Shown piece after piece: positions 13,012 through 18,008 of a stretch of DNA of 26,528 nucleotides; positions within the stretch are counted from its first letter, which is position 1; each line of letters starts with the position of its first letter. A model generated the notes under the pieces. The model made no database searches and was not told where the DNA came from. It saw nothing but the letters and a program-made list of their open reading frames with translations. Source of the DNA: a virus (Duplodnaviria > Heunggongvirae > Uroviricota > Caudoviricetes). Where the stretch lies: the IMG/VR virus record IMGVR_UViG_2563366972_000005, positions 1 to 26,528 of that record; one strand, written 5' to 3'. Made by a program: the position numbers and the translations under genes.

Positions 13012-13386
13012 ATGCGTATAGAGTTTGTTTTGCCTTACCCGCCGACGGTGAACACCTACTGGCGTCGTCGTGGCAGTACATATTTTGTATCAAAAGCCGG
13101 TGAGCGTTATCGCCGGGATGTGGCACTTATTGTTCGCCAGCAGCGACTGAAATTAAACCTGTCCGGAAGGCTGGCGATAAAGATTATTGCAGAGCCACCG
13201 GATAAGCGCCGTCGTGACCTGGACAATATTCTGAAAGCTCCACTGGATGCACTGACGCATGCGGGACTACTCATAGACGACGAGCAGTTTGATGAAATTA
13301 ATATTGTGCGCGGTCAGCTCGTTCCAGGTGGGCGGCTGGGCGTGAAGATTTACGAAATAATGCATGACGGGCAGGTCCAAAAATGA
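13012..13386 (+). CDS. rusA: RusA Holliday-junction resolvase (crossover junction endodeoxyribonuclease)
   Basis: 124 aa; YPPTVNTYWRRRG...RRRDLDN...LIDDEQ... parallels E. coli RusA (WPPSNNRYYR...RRRDLDN...WLDDAQ). Confidence 0.9.
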   Translation: MRIEFVLPYPPTVNTYWRRRGSTYFVSKAGERYRRDVALIVRQQRLKLNLSGRLAIKIIAEPPDKRRRDLDNILKAPLDALTHAGLLIDDEQFDEINIVRGQLVPGGRLGVKIYEIMHDGQVQK

Positions 13387-14204
13387 AACTGGAAGATTTA
13401 CCGAAATACTATTCTCCAAAATCGCCAGGCCTGACTGATGCGCCCATCTCGACGTCAAAAGATGCGCTGAGTATCACTGATGTAATGGCTGCGCAGGGTA
13501 TGACACAGAACCGGGCTGAGATGGGATTTTCCGCGTTCCTGGGAAAAATGGGCATTAGTATGAATGACAGGATGCGGGCAACAGAATTACTGGCAGATTA
13601 TGCATTAAGTCGGTGCGATCGCGTCGCGGCGTTAAGGAAACTCCCGGCAGAAATAAAACCGGCAGTGATGCGCATTATGGCTTCGTATGCTTTTGAGGAT
13701 TATGCCCGTAGTGCAGCGAGCAAAAAGCAGTGTCCTTGTTGCCGTGGGGAAAAATTTATTGAAAGCGAAGTTTTTACAAACAAGGTTCTGTATCCGGATG
13801 GTAAGCCGCCAGTATGGGCAAAGTGTACAAAAGGGGTGTATCCGTCTTACTGGGAAGAATGGAAAAAAATCCGGGAGGTGGTGAAAGTTTTCTGTCCTGA
13901 ATGTAAAGGGAAGGGGGAGATTTCGACCGCCTGTAAAGACTGCCGTGGGCGTGGTGTTGCCATTCATCGTGAAGAGTCGGAAAAACGGGGTATGCCTGTA
14001 ATCAGGAACTGCCAGCGTTGTGGCGGTCGGGGCTATGAAAGACTACCATCAACGGAGGCATTTAATGCCATACGCAAAGTGACGAGTGCTATCACGCTTG
14101 ATACGTGGAAAAAATCAGTGAAACGCTTTTACGATACGTTGGTGGTTCGGTTTGACATTGAAGAGGCATGGGCGGAGCGGCAGTTAAAGAGGGTAACGCG
14201 ATAG
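13383..14204 (+). CDS. Late-gene antiterminator Q-like protein with DnaJ-type CxxCxGxG zinc-finger repeats
   Basis: 273 aa; start overlaps rusA stop (ATGA); four CxxC motifs (CPCCRGEKF, CPECKGKGE, CKDCRGRGV, CQRCGGRGY); immediately upstream of a pR'-like promoter and tR'-like terminator. Confidence 0.65.
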   Translation: MKLEDLPKYYSPKSPGLTDAPISTSKDALSITDVMAAQGMTQNRAEMGFSAFLGKMGISMNDRMRATELLADYALSRCDRVAALRKLPAEIKPAVMRIMASYAFEDYARSAASKKQCPCCRGEKFIESEVFTNKVLYPDGKPPVWAKCTKGVYPSYWEEWKKIREVVKVFCPECKGKGEISTACKDCRGRGVAIHREESEKRGMPVIRNCQRCGGRGYERLPSTEAFNAIRKVTSAITLDTWKKSVKRFYDTLVVRFDIEEAWAERQLKRVTR

Positions 14205-14209
14205 TGTTG

Positions 14210-14237
14210 TTGATTTTTCCCGAATCTGTGGTAAATT
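14210..14237 (+). promoter_or_regulatory. pR'-like late promoter (TTGATT -16 bp- TAAATT)
   Basis: -35/-10 hexamers read from sequence just downstream of the Q-like gene; followed ~50 nt later by an intrinsic terminator, as for lambda pR'-qut-tR'. Confidence 0.45.
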
Positions 14238-14286
14238 TGCTCTAACGATGGGCGTTTTATGCCTGACGTTAGAAGAATTTTTACAG

Positions 14287-14308
14287 CCCGCCATCGAGCG
14301 GGTTTTTT
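14287..14308 (+). terminator. tR'-like intrinsic terminator (short 6S-like transcript end)
   Basis: CCCGC-CATCGA-GCGGG hairpin followed by TTTTTT. Confidence 0.65.
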
Positions 14309-14443
14309 ATATCTGGAAAGCGGTGCATAACGTTAAACGTGATGGCGATTGCGCAATGAGTTTCTCCTGCTCTGAAGTCTCTTGACTGCATGGAATCTCC
14401 TTTGTTATGTAAGGTGAGTTGATGTTTTAAAATTGTTAGAGAG

Positions 14444-15163
14444 ATGGGTATGGATGACAGCACTCTGCTGAGGAACTCTTCACTTTTTATTGCTTATATG
14501 GGCTGTCTTGGATGGGGAAGCGCTTATTTCTATGGATGGGGGACTTCCTTTTACTATGGCTTTCCATGGTGGATCGTCGGGGCTGGCGTTGATGATGTGG
14601 CTCGAAGTTTGTTTTATGCTGTGAGCGTTATCGTTATATTCCTTACTGGATGGGGAGTAGGTATTGTTTTCTTTTTAGGCATAAAACAAAAAAACAATAT
14701 ACAGAATTTGAGTTTTATCAGACTTTTTCTGGCAATATTGCTGCTTTTTATTCCGCCTGTTCTGGAGTTTTCGGTAATTCATCAGCACGTTGAGCCAGAT
14801 GTGCTGTTTTTTTGTGTTATTGCTGCCTTTACAATTACGCTTTTTGTCAGGTCAGGAAGAAGACTTATTTCAGTCAAATGTTTTTCGGAAGTGTCTTTTA
14901 TTCGCCATCACCGAATTGAGTTTATTATGGCTGGATTCATGATTTATTTCTGGACATTCTCTCTTATTGCCGGTTGGTATAAACCCCAGTTTAAGAGGGA
15001 ATATCAGACGATCCACTATGAGAATACCTGGTATTACGTTCTTGCACGCTATGATGATCGTCTGGTTTTATCGAAATCGTACAGTAATGGGAGTTCTGCA
15101 TTCGTTATACTTAATAGCGGGCAGATTGATGACTTTGAAATTAATGTAGTCAGAGTTCGTTAA
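14444..15163 (+). CDS. AT-rich integral membrane protein (about 5 predicted TM helices plus ~60 aa soluble C-terminal domain), function unknown; first gene of the late operon
   Basis: 239 aa; hydrophobic segments SLFIAYMGCLGWGSAYFYGW, LFYAVSVIVIFLTGWGVGIVFFLGI, FIRLFLAILLLFIPPVLEFSVI, VLFFCVIAAFTITLFV, FIMAGFMIYFWTFSLIAGWY; markedly lower GC than flanking phage genes. Confidence 0.65.
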   Translation: MGMDDSTLLRNSSLFIAYMGCLGWGSAYFYGWGTSFYYGFPWWIVGAGVDDVARSLFYAVSVIVIFLTGWGVGIVFFLGIKQKNNIQNLSFIRLFLAILLLFIPPVLEFSVIHQHVEPDVLFFCVIAAFTITLFVRSGRRLISVKCFSEVSFIRHHRIEFIMAGFMIYFWTFSLIAGWYKPQFKREYQTIHYENTWYYVLARYDDRLVLSKSYSNGSSAFVILNSGQIDDFEINVVRVR

Positions 15164-15285: not shown

Positions 15286-15361
15286 GGCCCTTTAGCTCAG
15301 TGGTGAGAGCGAGCGACTCATAATCGCCAGGTCGCTGGTTCAAATCCAGCAAGGGCCACCA
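15286..15361 (+). tRNA. tRNA-Ile2 (anticodon CAU, lysidine-type, reads AUA), ileX-like
   Basis: Cloverleaf folded by hand: acceptor GGCCCTT/AAGGGCC, anticodon loop CTCATAA, T-loop TTCAAAT, encoded CCA; near-identical to E. coli tRNA-Ile2. Confidence 0.88.
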
Positions 15362-15362
15362 A

Positions 15363-15439
15363 CCGCCACTAGCTCATCAGGAAAGAGCGTCAACCCTTTA
15401 AGTTGAGAGTGCGAGGTTCGAGTCCCCGGTGGCGGTCCA
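15363..15439 (+). tRNA. Noncanonical tRNA-like gene (anticodon loop CCTTTAA: UUU at 34-36 but C at position 33; A.C mismatch in T-stem)
   Basis: Acceptor CCGCCAC/GTGGCGG, U8, D-arm GCTC/GAGC, T-loop TTCGAGT, encoded CCA; anticodon stem TCAAC/GTTGA. Confidence 0.55.
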
Positions 15440-15441
15440 GT

Positions 15442-15517
<76 letters not shown>

Positions 15518-15520
15518 TAT

Positions 15521-15595
<75 letters not shown>

Positions 15596-16147
15596 GCATT
15601 TGAAACAAGCCTTATTGTATCGTGGCACTGGCGTATTTTTTATTACGTGGAGGTTGTTTTAAAAAGACATTCTGTTCTCTGGCTATGATTGGAGGTCGGT
15701 TGTAGTCACAGTGCTGATTTTTTACAGCAGCAGAATGGTGCATTATCGGTGGAGATTTTGTATTTCCTGGCAGGGTCGGTGATGCATCATTCTGGTGTTG
15801 TAAACACGTTGCAGAGGCGTTCCTCAGGGCGAAGGTAATTAAGAGTTGGTTTAGTGGGAAATCACAGTATCCATACAGGACGGAATACTTCGGGAGGTGC
15901 TCGACGCCCAGGTTTTATAACAATCAAAAAATTCATCTCTTGCATTGACCAACCTTCTTCATGGCGGTTTTTTTTGGTAATTGATTGAATTGCATACTGA
16001 ATAATCATTGCATCGTTAAAATTATAACTAATTCCGAATATGCTGTGCTTGCTTATTGTTAGTTTGCTTACATTTCTGTATCTTGCTGCACCGCAGGATT
16101 CCCCTGTAACGACGATTGTATGATGAATCATTTAAACTTTGTAATTT

Positions 16148-16179
16148 GCCAGCCAGTCTCTGGTGGCTGGTTTTTTTTT
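16148..16179 (+). terminator. Rho-independent terminator (CCAGCCA...TGGCTGG hairpin plus T9)
   Basis: Read from sequence; terminates rightward transcription of the unexplained region after the tRNA cluster. Confidence 0.6.
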
Positions 16180-16232
16180 GCAAGGTGTTCCAGTAATTCT
16201 GTCGTCAGGCTGGATTCCCACAGAACAAAAAA

Positions 16233-16314
16233 CCGTCACTAACTCATCGGGTAAGAGTGCATAACGCGTATTGTTGTTTTGTGGTGCGGGGTTCGAGTCC
16301 CCGGTGACGGTCCA
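16233..16314 (+). tRNA. tRNA-like gene / probable pseudo-tRNA, paralogous to the gene at 15363, with expanded noncanonical anticodon region
   Basis: Intact acceptor (CCGTCAC/GTGACGG), D-arm (ACTC/GAGT), T-arm (CGGGG-TTCGAGT-CCCCG) and CCA, but 28 nt between D- and T-stems instead of 23; best anticodon stem ATAAC/GTTGT gives loop GCGTATT. Confidence 0.45.
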
Positions 16315-16342
16315 TTTGTAACGGTAAATATACTTTTAACAG

Positions 16343-16363
16343 GCTCGCTTCGGCGAGCTTTTT
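16343..16363 (+). terminator. Rho-independent terminator after the tRNA-like gene
   Basis: GCTCGC-TTCG-GCGAGC hairpin followed by TTTTT. Confidence 0.6.
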
Positions 16364-16683
16364 GTATGAGTTCAACCCGGTTTATATTGGAGAAAAAAGG
16401 GCGCGGCTGTCGGATTAAAGCCGCGGGACAAAGTCCATGAAGAAGAATAAGTATTGGCCCCCTTCTGGGGACATGTTCATATTACTAAGCATTAAAAATG
16501 GTTTAAATCCTCAGATTAACTTTAATTTCAGATAAGCTTTATTTCATTTCTTCGCGCCACGCCCGGCGCATATCAAAAACCACAGAGCCTTTCAGGGGTG
16601 AGCTTACGGGATGGTCAGTGTGACTTTCTCTGTGGGCTGGTCACCCCCGTGCGGAGGCTCATCCACCAAAAGGAAAAGTCACG

Positions 16684-17109
16684 ATGTTTGGTATTTTCAA
16701 AAAGAAAACCCGCAAGGCCATTACTGAAGTGAAGAAAATGGAGAATCGCGATGCGGTGGAGGCAACCGTCTGGGGTGCGTATTCCATTGCATACGCTGAC
16801 GGCACCTGTGACGCGAAAGAAATCGCGGTACTGGAGAAAACCATTGCAGCACTTCCTTCTTTTGCGCCGTTCTCCGGTGAGATTGCCCAGATGAGTGCCA
16901 ATATCCGCGCCCGTTATGAAGCGTCACCGCGTTCTGCCAATGCCGAAGCTCTTCGTCAGCTGGCTGATGTCGCCGGTACTGATGACGCGGTGAATGTGCT
17001 GTGCCTGTGTCTGGATATCGCTGACCAGGACGGCATTGGTCCGGATGAAGAAGCACAGCTCAAGAAAATTGCACAGGCGTTGCAGTTGCCGCTGGAGCAG
17101 TACCTGTGA
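16684..17109 (+). CDS. TerB-like protein (tellurite-resistance TerB family fold)
   Basis: 141 aa; pattern resembles E. coli TerB throughout (N-terminal AVEATVWGAYSIAYADG..., C-terminal DGIGPDEEAQLKKIAQALQLP versus TerB DGNFDDDEKSAVREIARSLGFDP); AAGGAAAAG RBS. Confidence 0.7.
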   Translation: MFGIFKKKTRKAITEVKKMENRDAVEATVWGAYSIAYADGTCDAKEIAVLEKTIAALPSFAPFSGEIAQMSANIRARYEASPRSANAEALRQLADVAGTDDAVNVLCLCLDIADQDGIGPDEEAQLKKIAQALQLPLEQYL

Positions 17110-17258
17110 AAAGTGCGCGCCTTGTGCTGGCTGCCATCCTGCTGTTTCTGGTAGTGGCGGTGGATTTCACCGGACGGCTGATGTCGGTGCTGGCAGATGG
17201 TGTGCTGGTGGCGATGGCGCTGGTTGTGCTCCGACCTTTACTGCGCAAATCTGAATAA
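17106..17258 (+). CDS. Small membrane peptide (50 aa, VKSARLVLAAILLFLVVAVDFTGRLMSVLADGVLVAMALVVLRPLLRKSE); not in the ORF track
   Basis: Hand-translated; GTG start overlaps the TerB-like stop (GTGA); two hydrophobic segments; followed by tandem hairpin terminators. Confidence 0.3.
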   Translation: MKSARLVLAAILLFLVVAVDFTGRLMSVLADGVLVAMALVVLRPLLRKSE

Positions 17259-17310
17259 CACCACACAAAAGGCATCTGCGGGTGCCTTTGACGGGGTGTT
17301 GTTTTTTTAC

Positions 17311-17334
17311 GGGCCGCTGGTGGCCCTTTTTTCT
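17311..17334 (+). terminator. Rho-independent terminator (GGGCC-GCTGGT-GGCCC plus TTTTTTCTTT), preceded by a second hairpin at 17271-17290
   Basis: Read from sequence; separates the TerB-like pair from the lysis cassette. Confidence 0.6.
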
Positions 17335-17350
17335 TTACAGGAGAAAATGT

Positions 17351-17743
17351 ATGTCTGAACCCTTATCCGGTTCTGGTACAGCCGCTGCGCTCGGCGGGGC
17401 GACGGTATTCGGACTGTTTACCGGGACGGATTTCGGGATTGTGTTTGGGGCGTTCGCCGGAGCGTTGTTTGTGGCAACGATGCCGCAGGCGCTTTCAGCC
17501 TGGCGGGTGGCGGCACATTTTCTGGTGTCGTTCATTGTCGGCGTGCTGGGAGCGCGCGTGCTGTCAGCCTGGATTGCAGCAAAAACAGGTTATGACGGTA
17601 CATCGGCGGATGCACTGTGTGCGGTGCTGGTATCGGTGGTGTCGGTAAAGATTCTGTCGTTTATCCACCAACAGGATATCGCATCACTGGTGTCCGGCCT
17701 GTTCTCCCGCTTGCGTGGCGGAGGAGGCGGCAATGTTAAGTAA
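17351..17743 (+). CDS. Holin-like membrane protein
   Basis: 130 aa from ATG 17351 (AGGAG 7 nt upstream); Gly/Ala-rich TM helices (GATVFGLFTGTDFGIVFGAFAGALFVA...); first gene of the lysis cassette. Confidence 0.65.
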   Translation: MSEPLSGSGTAAALGGATVFGLFTGTDFGIVFGAFAGALFVATMPQALSAWRVAAHFLVSFIVGVLGARVLSAWIAAKTGYDGTSADALCAVLVSVVSVKILSFIHQQDIASLVSGLFSRLRGGGGGNVK

Positions 17744-18008
17744 CCTTCCCGGATTGCTGAATGTGGCGTTATGCACGGTTATCGTGCTGACGCTCTTTTT
17801 TTATCGCCGTCGTGATTCCAGACATAAACCGCTGATGTCATGGCTGGCCTGGCTGTTGATGTTGCTTTATGCCTTAACGCCTCTCAGCTATCTGTGTGGT
17901 CGCCCGTTAGCAACGGGCTGGCTGGAAGTGTTTTTTAATCTGTTGTTCTGCGTGCTGGTAATACGTGCTCGCGGGAACGTTTCAAAAATCCTTTCATCCC
18001 GGAGGTGA
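17733..18008 (+). CDS. Second lysis-cassette membrane protein (holin/antiholin-like)
   Basis: 91 aa from ATG 17733 (GGAGG upstream); 2-3 hydrophobic helices; lies between holin and endolysin. Confidence 0.55.
   Translation: MLSNLPGLLNVALCTVIVLTLFFYRRRDSRHKPLMSWLAWLLMLLYALTPLSYLCGRPLATGWLEVFFNLLFCVLVIRARGNVSKILSSRR

What the first reader, a model, noticed from the sequence alone, without database searches (positions are those of the whole stretch)
14209..15163. AT-rich 5-TM membrane protein inserted as first gene behind the pR'/tR' late promoter
Directly after the Q-like gene comes a pR'-like promoter and a tR'-like terminator, then a 239 aa multi-pass membrane protein whose base composition is far more AT-rich than the phage backbone. 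In lambdoid phages this slot carries lysogenic-conversion or exclusion cargo (stx, bor-like genes). I cannot assign it to any family from sequence, so it is a candidate uncharacterised superinfection-exclusion or abortive-infection determinant.
Basis: partly seen in the sequence, partly recalled or inferred. Interest (0 to 1): 0.65.

Follow-up and report, generated by a model that had tools for sequence, protein, structure and literature searches.

The report
TfpB/STM1630-family membrane gene behind Q
The AT-rich gene just after the prophage's late promoter is real, but it belongs to an already catalogued family of inner-membrane proteins (TfpB/STM1630) whose function is still unknown and which often sits beside toxin and virulence genes.

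Summary
A lambda-like pR' promoter and tR' terminator follow the Q gene. The first ORF behind them (14450-15163, 237 aa; 239 aa from the upstream ATG) has 39.5% GC against 49.9% for the window. It encodes a five-helix membrane protein with a small C-terminal beta domain.

The protein belongs to Pfam PF27470 "TfpB", which NCBI labels "STM1630 family protein" and PHROGs lists as phrog_1521. Relatives include the gene in the same slot of phage 434, EDL933 prophages and an Stx2j phage. Others are the ORF beside eltAB on ETEC plasmids, Salmonella STM1630 between steB and sseJ, and Moraxella tfpB inside the pilin inversion. Neisseriaceae and Pasteurellaceae carry single orphan copies.

No function is established. 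There is no match to known defence models and no significant fold match. The only experimental data concern Salmonella: induction in macrophages, co-regulation with SPI-2, and attenuation in transposon screens.

My best reading is a host-adaptation (lysogenic-conversion) envelope moron. Superinfection exclusion remains an untested rival. The gene is catalogued but uncharacterised, and of moderate-to-low interest.

The parts
13383..14204 (+). Q-type late antiterminator gene (273 aa)
   Evidence: PF03589 Antiterm, E 3.1e-50. Annotated 'antitermination protein' in the IHE3034 counterpart.
14210..14252 (+). pR'-like late promoter: -35-like TTGATT at 14210-14215, -10 TAAATT at 14232-14237, and the sigma-70 pause-type element AACGATGGG at 14244-14252
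   Evidence: Aligns with lambda pR' (GGTAAATTTGACTCAACGATGGG in lambda, GGTAAATTTGCTCTAACGATGGG in the window). The function of the lambda elements is from established knowledge, not tested here.
14285..14311 (+). tR'-like intrinsic terminator
   Evidence: Hairpin of 7 pairs (5 G-C) plus a T run. The tail GGGTTTTTTATATCTG matches lambda tR'. The hairpin is conserved in 434 and EDL933.
14379..14411 (+). Conserved promoter-like element upstream of the gene: TTGACT at 14382-14387, an 18-nt spacer, and extended -10-like TGtTATGTA at 14403-14411
   Evidence: The block is nearly identical in 434, EDL933 and Escherichia sp. MOD1, although the proteins are only about 57% identical. Homology to EDL933 begins at 14379. 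The consensus scan did not call it a promoter, so it is a candidate only.
14450..15163 (+). TfpB/STM1630-family inner-membrane protein gene (237 aa; 239 aa if started at 14444)
   Evidence: phrog_1521, E 1.3e-86. 97%-identical proteins carry the PF27470 label. AF2 model with five helices plus a beta domain. GC 39.5%.
15286..15595 (+). Cluster of four tRNA genes (CAU anticodon, annotated tRNA-Ile in RefSeq; Lys-UUU; Thr-UGU; Gly-UCC) downstream in the same late-operon cargo region
   Evidence: ARAGORN, Rfam tRNA at 45-74 bits, RefSeq annotation in IHE3034.
16684..17258 (+). TerB-domain protein (16684-17109) and DUF3927 small membrane protein (17106-17258), further cargo before the holins
   Evidence: PF05099, E 9e-8. 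PF13064, E 2.4e-14. A DUF3927 gene directly follows the tfpB homologue in 434 and EDL933.

Best explanation
Identity (confidence about 0.95). The gene encodes a member of the TfpB/STM1630 family (Pfam PF27470, phrog_1521). By the positive-inside rule it is an inner-membrane protein with the N-terminus in the cytoplasm, five transmembrane helices and a C-terminal beta domain of about 55 residues in the periplasm. The most conserved part is an aromatic and glycine-rich stretch covering helix 1, the first periplasmic loop and the start of helix 2 (AYxYGWGxSxYYGFPWW...ARSL).

Function (inferred, confidence about 0.4). It is a laterally mobile, low-GC accessory gene (a 'moron') parked in the Q-to-lysis cargo slot of lambdoid prophages. 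It is transcribed at a high level by Q-antiterminated read-through from pR' during induction, and probably also at a low level from its own promoter-like element in the lysogen. I think it benefits the bacterial host in an animal, as a lysogenic-conversion or envelope-adaptation factor, rather than serving phage growth. The likely mode of action is binding of another envelope component through the conserved periplasm-facing aromatic surface and the more variable helices 3-4 and beta domain.

Shown: family membership, architecture, slot, composition, distribution. Inferred: topology side, own promoter, host-adaptive role.
For: Family membership.
- phrog_1521, E 1.3e-86.
- PF27470 labels on 99 homologues, including 97%-identical ones.
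- A profile of the family recovers Moraxella bovis tfpB lying between inverted pilin gene halves.
- It also recovers the Salmonella gene next to sseJ, which is STM1630.
- NCBI labels a 99.6%-identical E. coli gene 'STM1630 family protein'.

Architecture. AF2 model with pLDDT 82.5. K and R residues are concentrated in loops 79-91 and 134-157. Conservation is highest in helix 1 and loop 1 (0.82-0.85) and lowest in loop 3 and helix 4 (0.26-0.36).

Cargo behaviour.
- GC 39.5% against 49.9%.
- Lambda has nothing comparable between tR' and S.
- 434, 2B8, EDL933, an Stx2j phage and Yersinia prophages carry a homologue after Q genes of different types.
- 1197 of 5426 complete E. coli genomes have a blastn match.

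Host-adaptation lean.
- The gene is retained next to virulence loci after the rest of the phage is gone: eltAB on ETEC plasmids, pINV, the foc/sfa-papX island, steB/sseJ, and a Cdt-like gene in Glaesserella.
- It recurs beside LpxR and PmrD.
- The whole family is confined to animal-associated Proteobacteria.
- STM1630 has its own transcription start and -10 box and is expressed in macrophages (PMC6785131).
- STM1630 is co-regulated with SPI-2 genes (PMC2639726).
- That paper's supplement cites attenuation of STM1630 mutants in calf and chicken transposon screens.

Own promoter. A conserved TTGAC-N17/18-TGnTATG block lies upstream of the gene.
Against: No member of the family has a demonstrated molecular function.

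- Clean deletions of STM1630 did not change growth in LB or replication in macrophages.
- The hypermotility seen in a screen was not among the phenotypes pursued in the clean-deletion study, whose authors suspect polar effects for some results of that screen.
- Neighbourhood to toxin genes may only reflect shared residence in the same phage cargo slot (hitch-hiking).
- The promoter-like element misses the consensus scan and the -10 is weak.
- No terminator follows the gene, so it is not a textbook self-contained moron.
- No fold or sequence similarity points to any mechanism.
Confidence: 0.45

Rival explanations
1. Superinfection-exclusion or abortive-infection determinant. The membrane protein blocks DNA entry of incoming phages or kills infected cells.
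For: It is a prophage-borne polytopic membrane protein in a cargo slot. It shows high allelic diversity within E. coli, 44-100% identity, with a conserved N-terminus and more variable helices 3-4 and C-terminal domain. That pattern is seen in specificity-determining proteins. The gene is widespread and mobile like defence genes.
Against: There is no credible match in PADLOC-DB (AbiC E 0.0037 over helices only). All PHROG hits are of unknown function. In Neisseriaceae and Pasteurellaceae the homologues sit alone between housekeeping genes, not in phages or defence islands. The gene lies behind tR', so its main expression would come after induction, which is late for protecting a lysogen unless the weak internal promoter is active.
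Confidence: 0.2
2. Pilin or pseudopilin accessory protein, working like TfpY/FimB. It would bind the hydrophobic N-terminal segments of pilin-type proteins in the inner membrane and modulate type IV pilus, competence-pilus or type II secretion assembly.
For: The founding member, Moraxella tfpB, lies directly among the pilin genes inside the Piv-invertible segment. The non-enterobacterial hosts (Moraxella, Neisseriaceae, Pasteurellaceae) typically make type IV or competence pili (own knowledge). The architecture parallels TfpY-like proteins: N-terminal helices plus a periplasmic beta domain, with similarity concentrated in the helices (PMC11841053).
Against: A pilin signature (GFTLIELMIV-type) is found within 5 kb only in the Moraxella loci, not in any Neisseriaceae, Pasteurellaceae or enterobacterial locus. 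TfpY-like proteins have three helices and a different, larger beta domain. The M. lacunata and M. equi copies are truncated. No pilin gene is near the window gene.
Confidence: 0.1
3. Late lytic-cycle helper. As the first protein made from the Q-antiterminated late transcript, it would condition the membrane for lysis timing, or protect progeny from adsorbing to debris.
For: In several phages, including plaque-forming phage 434, it is the first ORF downstream of pR'-tR' and upstream of the holin and endolysin genes.
Against: Lambda lacks it. It has no holin, antiholin or spanin family match. It persists on plasmids, in pathogenicity islands and in chromosomes without any lysis genes.
Confidence: 0.1
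4. Selectively neutral passenger, or a decaying remnant with no current function in this prophage.
For: Many copies are broken: frameshifted or truncated proteins (P0072, P0074, P0096), the E. coli 536 pseudogene, IS insertions in two strains, and truncated Moraxella copies.
Against: The window copy is intact. Its sequence is kept at 99.6-100% identity in dozens of genomes. Twenty-three columns are invariant across the 31 sequences of the first alignment, which are mostly enterobacterial, and the fold is predicted with confidence from co-variation. This indicates purifying selection.
Confidence: 0.05

Closest known systems
Phage 434 gene CPT_434_68 (UMO75332.1, 'putative membrane protein') and its phage 2B8 counterpart
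   Same: 57% identical over 99% of the length. Same slot: a Q-type antiterminator, a terminator, then this gene, followed by DUF3927, with the holin and endolysin further on. The tR' hairpin and the promoter-like block upstream are shared.
   Different: The Q type differs (Q82-like). No tRNA cluster follows in 434, where a SASA/NanS-p esterase lies between it and the holin. Function is unknown there too.
Salmonella Typhimurium STM1630 (source of the NCBI name 'STM1630 family protein')
   Same: Same family and length (238 aa). The S. arizonae and S. diarizonae orthologues are about 50% identical and lie next to sseJ. Low-GC single gene.
   Different: It is not in an intact prophage. It has its own mapped promoter, is expressed in macrophages, is co-regulated with SPI-2, and is reported as attenuated in calf and chicken transposon screens. 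Clean deletions gave no growth or macrophage phenotype.
Moraxella bovis / M. lacunata TfpB (source of the Pfam name PF27470)
   Same: 28% identity over residues 10-233, with the same N-terminal motif and overall length.
   Different: It lies inside the invertible type IV pilin segment next to piv, not in a phage. The M. lacunata and M. equi copies are truncated.
ORF flanking eltAB on ETEC enterotoxin plasmids (cluster P0020, WP_001424997.1)
   Same: 78% identical protein. Homology to the window spans exactly the gene plus about 50 bp upstream.
   Different: It is plasmid-borne, divergent from eltA, and flanked by IS elements. No Q, pR' or lysis genes remain.
TfpY/FimB-like pilin accessory proteins (Pseudomonas, Dichelobacter, Acinetobacter, Neisseria)
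   Same: A working analogy only: a polytopic inner-membrane N-terminus plus a periplasmic beta domain, a pilin-adjacent gene in one lineage, and similarity concentrated in the helices (PMC11841053).
   Different: Three helices rather than five, and a larger mixed beta domain. No sequence link was shown. Membership is not claimed.
Classical lambdoid conversion and exclusion genes (stx, bor, lom, rexAB, sieB, cor)
   Same: Accessory cargo of lambdoid prophages. stx occupies the same Q-to-lysis slot, and in the Stx2j phage it lies just downstream of a tfpB homologue.
   Different: No sequence or fold relationship to any of them.

Membership tests
TfpB / STM1630 family (Pfam PF27470; phrog_1521) | Significant match to the family profile | tested here: met
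   phrog_1521, E 1.3e-86 over residues 19-239. All 99 homologues, including 97%-identical P0001 and P0002, carry the precomputed PF27470 label. The label reads 'TfpB'. The local Pfam copy lacks PF27470, so the query itself was not scored against that HMM.
TfpB / STM1630 family (Pfam PF27470; phrog_1521) | Homology to the name-giving proteins (Moraxella TfpB, Salmonella STM1630) | tested here: met
   A pattern plus tblastn search with the family alignment recovers M. bovis tfpB between pilin halves (28% identity, E 4e-21) and the Salmonella gene next to sseJ (about 50% identity, E about 1e-78).
TfpB / STM1630 family (Pfam PF27470; phrog_1521) | Length of about 230-260 aa, five helices plus a C-terminal beta domain, and the N-terminal AYxYGWG...YYGxPWW...ARSL motif | tested here: met
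   AF2 model. Alignments with invariant Y26 and Y195 and near-invariant W30, G37, P39, W40, A51, S53.
Known anti-phage defence or superinfection-exclusion families | Sequence match to a described defence or exclusion protein | tested here: not met
   PADLOC-DB gives only AbiC at E 0.0037 and 14.8 bits over hydrophobic residues 56-114. PHROG hits are all 'unknown function'. NCBIfam gives none.
Known anti-phage defence or superinfection-exclusion families | Protection phenotype against phage | not testable with these tools
   Needs plaque and liquid infection assays.
Lambdoid 'moron' (Hendrix/Juhala sense) | Base composition deviating from the backbone, and presence/absence polymorphism among related phages | tested here: met
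   GC 39.5% against 49.9%. Absent from lambda, present in 434, 2B8, EDL933 and Stx2j phages.
Lambdoid 'moron' (Hendrix/Juhala sense) | Own promoter | tested here: inconclusive
   A conserved TTGACT-18-TGtTATGTA block lies upstream, but the consensus scan does not call it. The Salmonella homologue has a mapped transcription start and -10 box.
Lambdoid 'moron' (Hendrix/Juhala sense) | Own terminator | tested here: not met
   No terminator-like site lies between the stop codon at 15163 and the tRNA cluster.
TfpY/FimB-like pilin accessory proteins | Three N-terminal transmembrane helices plus a periplasmic mixed beta-sheet domain (PMC11841053) | tested here: not met
   The model has five long helices and a beta domain of about 55 residues (description of TfpY).
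TfpY/FimB-like pilin accessory proteins | Gene immediately adjacent to a major pilin gene | tested here: not met
   A pilin signature occurs only in the Moraxella loci, and none lies within 5 kb in the other loci. The window locus itself, which was not part of that scan, is flanked by Q, tRNAs, TerB and holins.
TfpY/FimB-like pilin accessory proteins | Sequence or profile homology to TfpY, TfpZ or FimB | not tested
   No TfpY or FimB sequence could be obtained. The query has no Pfam-A hit at E <= 1.
Holin / lysis proteins | Match to a holin, antiholin or spanin family | tested here: not met
   The query has no Pfam hit. The true holins lie at 17282-17743 (PF16931) and 17715-18008 (PF05449).

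The most novel reading that the evidence does not exclude
The TfpB/STM1630 family is a still-unrecognised functional class. It would be a mobile inner-membrane factor that travels with secreted toxins and effectors (Stx2j, LT-I, Cdt-like, SseJ/SteB) and with pilin genes. It would act on envelope export or assembly machinery, or alternatively be a new single-gene family of prophage-encoded phage exclusion. Either way, a gene present in about a fifth of complete E. coli genomes would gain a function.
Probability: 0.15. Interest if true: 0.6.

Novelty: already known. Interest (0 to 1): 0.33.

Why it matters
The gene itself is not new. Identical or near-identical copies are in RefSeq, and the family has Pfam, NCBI and PHROG entries. 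What remains open is its function.

The family is found in 1197 of 5426 complete E. coli genomes. It occurs in the classic phage 434, beside eltAB on ETEC plasmids, upstream of stx2j, on pINV, and between two SPI-2 effector genes in Salmonella.

Linking these scattered 'hypothetical proteins' to one family gives an inexpensive target. One cloned gene can be tested against a phage panel and in envelope-stress and colonisation assays. The linkage also suggests that the LT-I locus on ETEC plasmids retains a fragment of a lambdoid Q-to-lysis cargo region.

Tried and rejected
- Pfam-A (local copy), NCBIfam and PADLOC scans of the protein gave nothing usable. The only hit, AbiC at E 0.0037, covers hydrophobic helices and was rejected.
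- The first AF2 model, built from enterobacterial sequences only, was poor (pLDDT 59.9) and was not used. Adding distant homologues raised pLDDT to 82.5.
- Weak local Foldseek hits to SH3-like small barrels and to MscS were not treated as evidence.
- A profile search against PDB sequences found nothing.
- The afdb50 library was unavailable.
- A literature search for 'TfpB' mostly returned chemistry and anaesthesia papers, plus the unrelated Acinetobacter PilB-like motor also called TfpB.
- Searches for PF27470 and for accession numbers found nothing useful.
- The search for related loci with the widest alignment failed for lack of a conserved stretch. It worked with a narrower alignment.
- The idea that the downstream A-ending-codon tRNAs serve this AT-rich gene was checked. 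Codon counts (5 ATA of 23 Ile, 7 GGA of 17 Gly) are not distinctive enough to claim it.
- The 45-aa ORF at 14248-14385 overlaps the pR' leader and terminator and was dismissed as non-coding.
Full report
**Observation**

A GAGAG run at 14439-14443 sits too close to the first ATG and at a normal distance from the second ATG at 14450. RefSeq starts the 99.6% identical IHE3034 gene there (237 aa, WP_000342820.1).

The ORF has 39.5% GC. The window has 49.9%, Q 48.7% and the DUF968 gene 55.3%. The sliding profile falls to 0.37-0.40 across the gene.

The preceding gene (13383-14204) is a Q antiterminator (PF03589, E 3e-50). Fetching lambda and aligning it shows that window 14207-14255 matches lambda pR'. 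The match includes the -10 TAAATT (14232-14237) and the AACGATGGG element (14244-14252) that induces the sigma-70-dependent pause in lambda. The role of these elements in lambda is established knowledge and was not tested here. The hairpin at 14285-14304 with the tail TTTTTTATATCTG copies the lambda tR' tail. The leader is only about 65-70 nt.

Downstream lie four tRNA genes (15286-15595), a TerB-domain protein (16684-17109), a DUF3927 protein (17106-17258) and two holins.

**What the protein is**

The local Pfam-A copy, NCBIfam and PADLOC gave no usable hit. PHROGs gave phrog_1521 at E 1.3e-86, a family of unknown function.

The large protein search returned 99 homologues, all carrying a precomputed Pfam label PF27470. 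Later outputs name this family 'TfpB'. In RefSeq, a 99.6% identical E. coli gene is already called 'STM1630 family protein'.

I tested both names.
- A search of one genome per species with a family alignment recovered Moraxella bovis, M. lacunata, M. equi and M. oblonga loci.
- In M. bovis the 261-aa homologue lies between two inverted pilin gene halves. In M. lacunata a truncated copy lies beside a Piv-like recombinase and pilin genes. This is the classical tfpB position.
- The S. enterica arizonae homologue (about 50% identity) lies next to a GDSL-lipase protein with a Sif-type N-terminus, which is SseJ. This matches the published position of STM1630 between steB and sseJ.

An exhaustive profile search of 1.84 billion representatives found only 69 family members at E <= 0.001. 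The family is small and confined to Enterobacteriaceae, Pasteurellaceae, Neisseriaceae and Moraxella.

**Structure**

With 40 sequences including the distant members, AlphaFold2 gave pLDDT 82.5 and pTM 0.76. The model has helices at 4-36, 47-79, 84-111, 116-138 and 155-181, short amphipathic helices at 142-153, and a five-stranded beta domain at 184-235.

Lys and Arg residues cluster in loops 79-91 and 134-157. By the positive-inside rule this places the N-terminus in the cytoplasm and the beta domain in the periplasm. That topology is an inference.

Conservation is highest in helix 1 and the first periplasmic loop (0.82-0.85 among enterobacterial sequences). It is lowest in loop 3 and helix 4 (0.26-0.36). 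The aromatic and glycine-rich motif AYxYGWG...YYGFPWW...ARSL is the family signature.

**Where the family lives**

In lambdoid prophages the gene lies behind Q genes of several types.
- Phage 434 and phage 2B8: 57% identity, in the order Q82-like, terminator, gene, DUF3927.
- An EDL933 prophage: Q, gene, DUF3927, DUF6645 esterase, holin.
- Yersinia prophages.
- An Stx2j phage that is colinear with the window from DUF968 through the first tRNA at 84-86% identity, then carries stx2jAB.

In another prophage type a methyltransferase and the tRNAs come first. There the gene is followed by LpxR and PmrD.

Outside phages:
- It lies about 870 bp from eltAB on ETEC plasmids, in all eight places shown for a cluster seen in over a thousand assemblies.
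- It lies between IS elements on pINV.
- It follows focH-sfaY-papX in a UPEC island.
- It is a pseudogene near iroBC in strain 536.
- It lies beside a broken LpxR gene in Citrobacter rodentium.
- It lies next to a Cdt-like gene in Glaesserella.
- In Avibacterium, Neisseria, Pasteurella, Conchiformibius, Aggregatibacter and others it is a lone gene between housekeeping genes.

A pilin signature lies within 5 kb only in Moraxella. In distant blastn, 1197 of 5426 complete E. coli genomes have a match. The exact allele with its flanks is in 77 genomes, largely ExPEC.

**Expression**

The gene is behind tR', so Q-dependent read-through should express it strongly after induction. This is inferred from lambda biology.

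A block at 14379-14411 (TTGACT, 18 nt, TGtTATGTA) is almost invariant among the window, 434, EDL933 and Escherichia sp. MOD1, while the proteins are about 57% identical. Homology to EDL933 starts exactly there. The consensus scan does not call it a promoter, so it is a candidate only.

The Salmonella homologue has a mapped transcription start. Natural SNPs in its -10 box silence it in ST313 strains.

**Function**

Nothing is established. For STM1630 the literature reports the following.
- Expression in macrophages.
- Co-regulation with SPI-2 and other virulence genes.
- Attenuation in calf and chicken transposon screens, as cited in the supplement.
- Hypermotility in a screen, 1.72-fold swimming and 1.62-fold swarming. 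The clean-deletion follow-up study did not pursue this, and its authors suspect polar effects for some of the screen's results.
- No growth or macrophage-replication phenotype of clean deletions.

Weighing this, I favour a host-adaptive envelope moron. The family is restricted to animal-associated bacteria. It is kept beside toxin, effector and lipid A-modifying genes after the surrounding phage has decayed. In Salmonella it is under virulence-type regulation.

The toxin neighbourhood could equally be hitch-hiking within the same cargo slot. I therefore put this reading at about 0.4, against about 0.95 for the family identity.

Other readings:
It cannot be excluded without assays, and I give it 0.2.
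- A TfpY-like pilin-accessory role is suggested only by the Moraxella context and a loose architectural parallel. I give it 0.1.
- A late-lysis role is 0.1.
- A neutral passenger is 0.05.

**Novelty and verdict**

The gene and its family are already catalogued (RefSeq proteins, PF27470, the 'STM1630 family' label, phrog_1521, and the annotated phage 434 gene). It is known but uncharacterised.

The useful result is negative for the specific claim and integrative otherwise. One family unites phage 434 gp68, the ORF beside eltAB, STM1630 and Moraxella TfpB. Interest is moderate to low (0.33). It would rise if a simple phage-challenge or envelope-stress experiment gave a phenotype.

Noticed in passing
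L043 982-3709; L047-L054 1487-4214: On ETEC enterotoxin plasmids a 78%-identical tfpB homologue lies about 870 bp from eltA, divergently oriented, in every place shown. Homology to the window covers only the gene plus about 50 bp upstream. This suggests that the LT-I locus keeps a fragment of a lambdoid Q-to-lysis cargo region.
   Followed up: partly
L046 1935-5309: An Stx2j-converting prophage is colinear with the window from DUF968 through Q, the tfpB homologue and the first tRNA (84-86% identity). It then carries stx2jA/B and a SASA esterase where the window has more tRNAs and TerB/DUF3927.
   Followed up: partly
window 16233-16314: ARAGORN calls an 82-nt 'tRNA-Val(aac)'. The Rfam tRNA model does not support it at E <= 0.1. 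It shares its 3' acceptor and T-arm sequence with the tRNA-Lys at 15363-15439, and blastn matches it to a tRNA-Arg in the E. coli 536 locus. It is probably a degenerate tRNA copy.
   Followed up: partly
window 16684-17258: A TerB-domain protein and an overlapping 50-aa DUF3927 membrane protein precede the holins. A DUF3927 gene directly follows the tfpB homologue in 434 (annotated TciB) and EDL933, so these small cargo genes tend to travel together.
   Followed up: partly
window 17282-18008: Two different putative holin genes (PF16931 Phage_holin_8 and PF05449 Phage_holin_3_7) overlap by 29 bases. The IHE3034 relative has a different lysis cassette at this position (class II holin, YdfR, lysozyme).
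   Followed up: no
L055-L060 4470-6005; L004 2863-3823; L002 1166-2125: The lipid A deacylase gene lpxR, sometimes with pmrD, recurs next to or near tfpB homologues in three different arrangements: a prophage type with a methyltransferase, the Citrobacter rodentium chromosome, and phage 434.
   Followed up: no
L029 5955-6485: In Glaesserella parasuis the tfpB homologue is followed, on the opposite strand, by a gene with a cytolethal distending toxin A/C domain.
   Followed up: no
L027 and L028; L026 and L037: Aggregatibacter actinomycetemcomitans strains carry two paralogous tfpB-family genes at separate chromosomal sites.
   Followed up: no
Hits H4 and H10 (E. coli T309.Ta3, KE51): In two E. 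coli genomes the otherwise identical Q-tfpB-tRNA region is split by an IS903B or IS1 insertion.
   Followed up: no
window 15600-16680: About 1 kb of low-GC sequence without a convincing ORF lies between the tRNA cluster and the TerB gene. It contains two strong terminator-like hairpins (16148-16171, 16341-16360). Part of it (16023-16181) recurs upstream of the tfpB homologue in another prophage type (L055).
   Followed up: no
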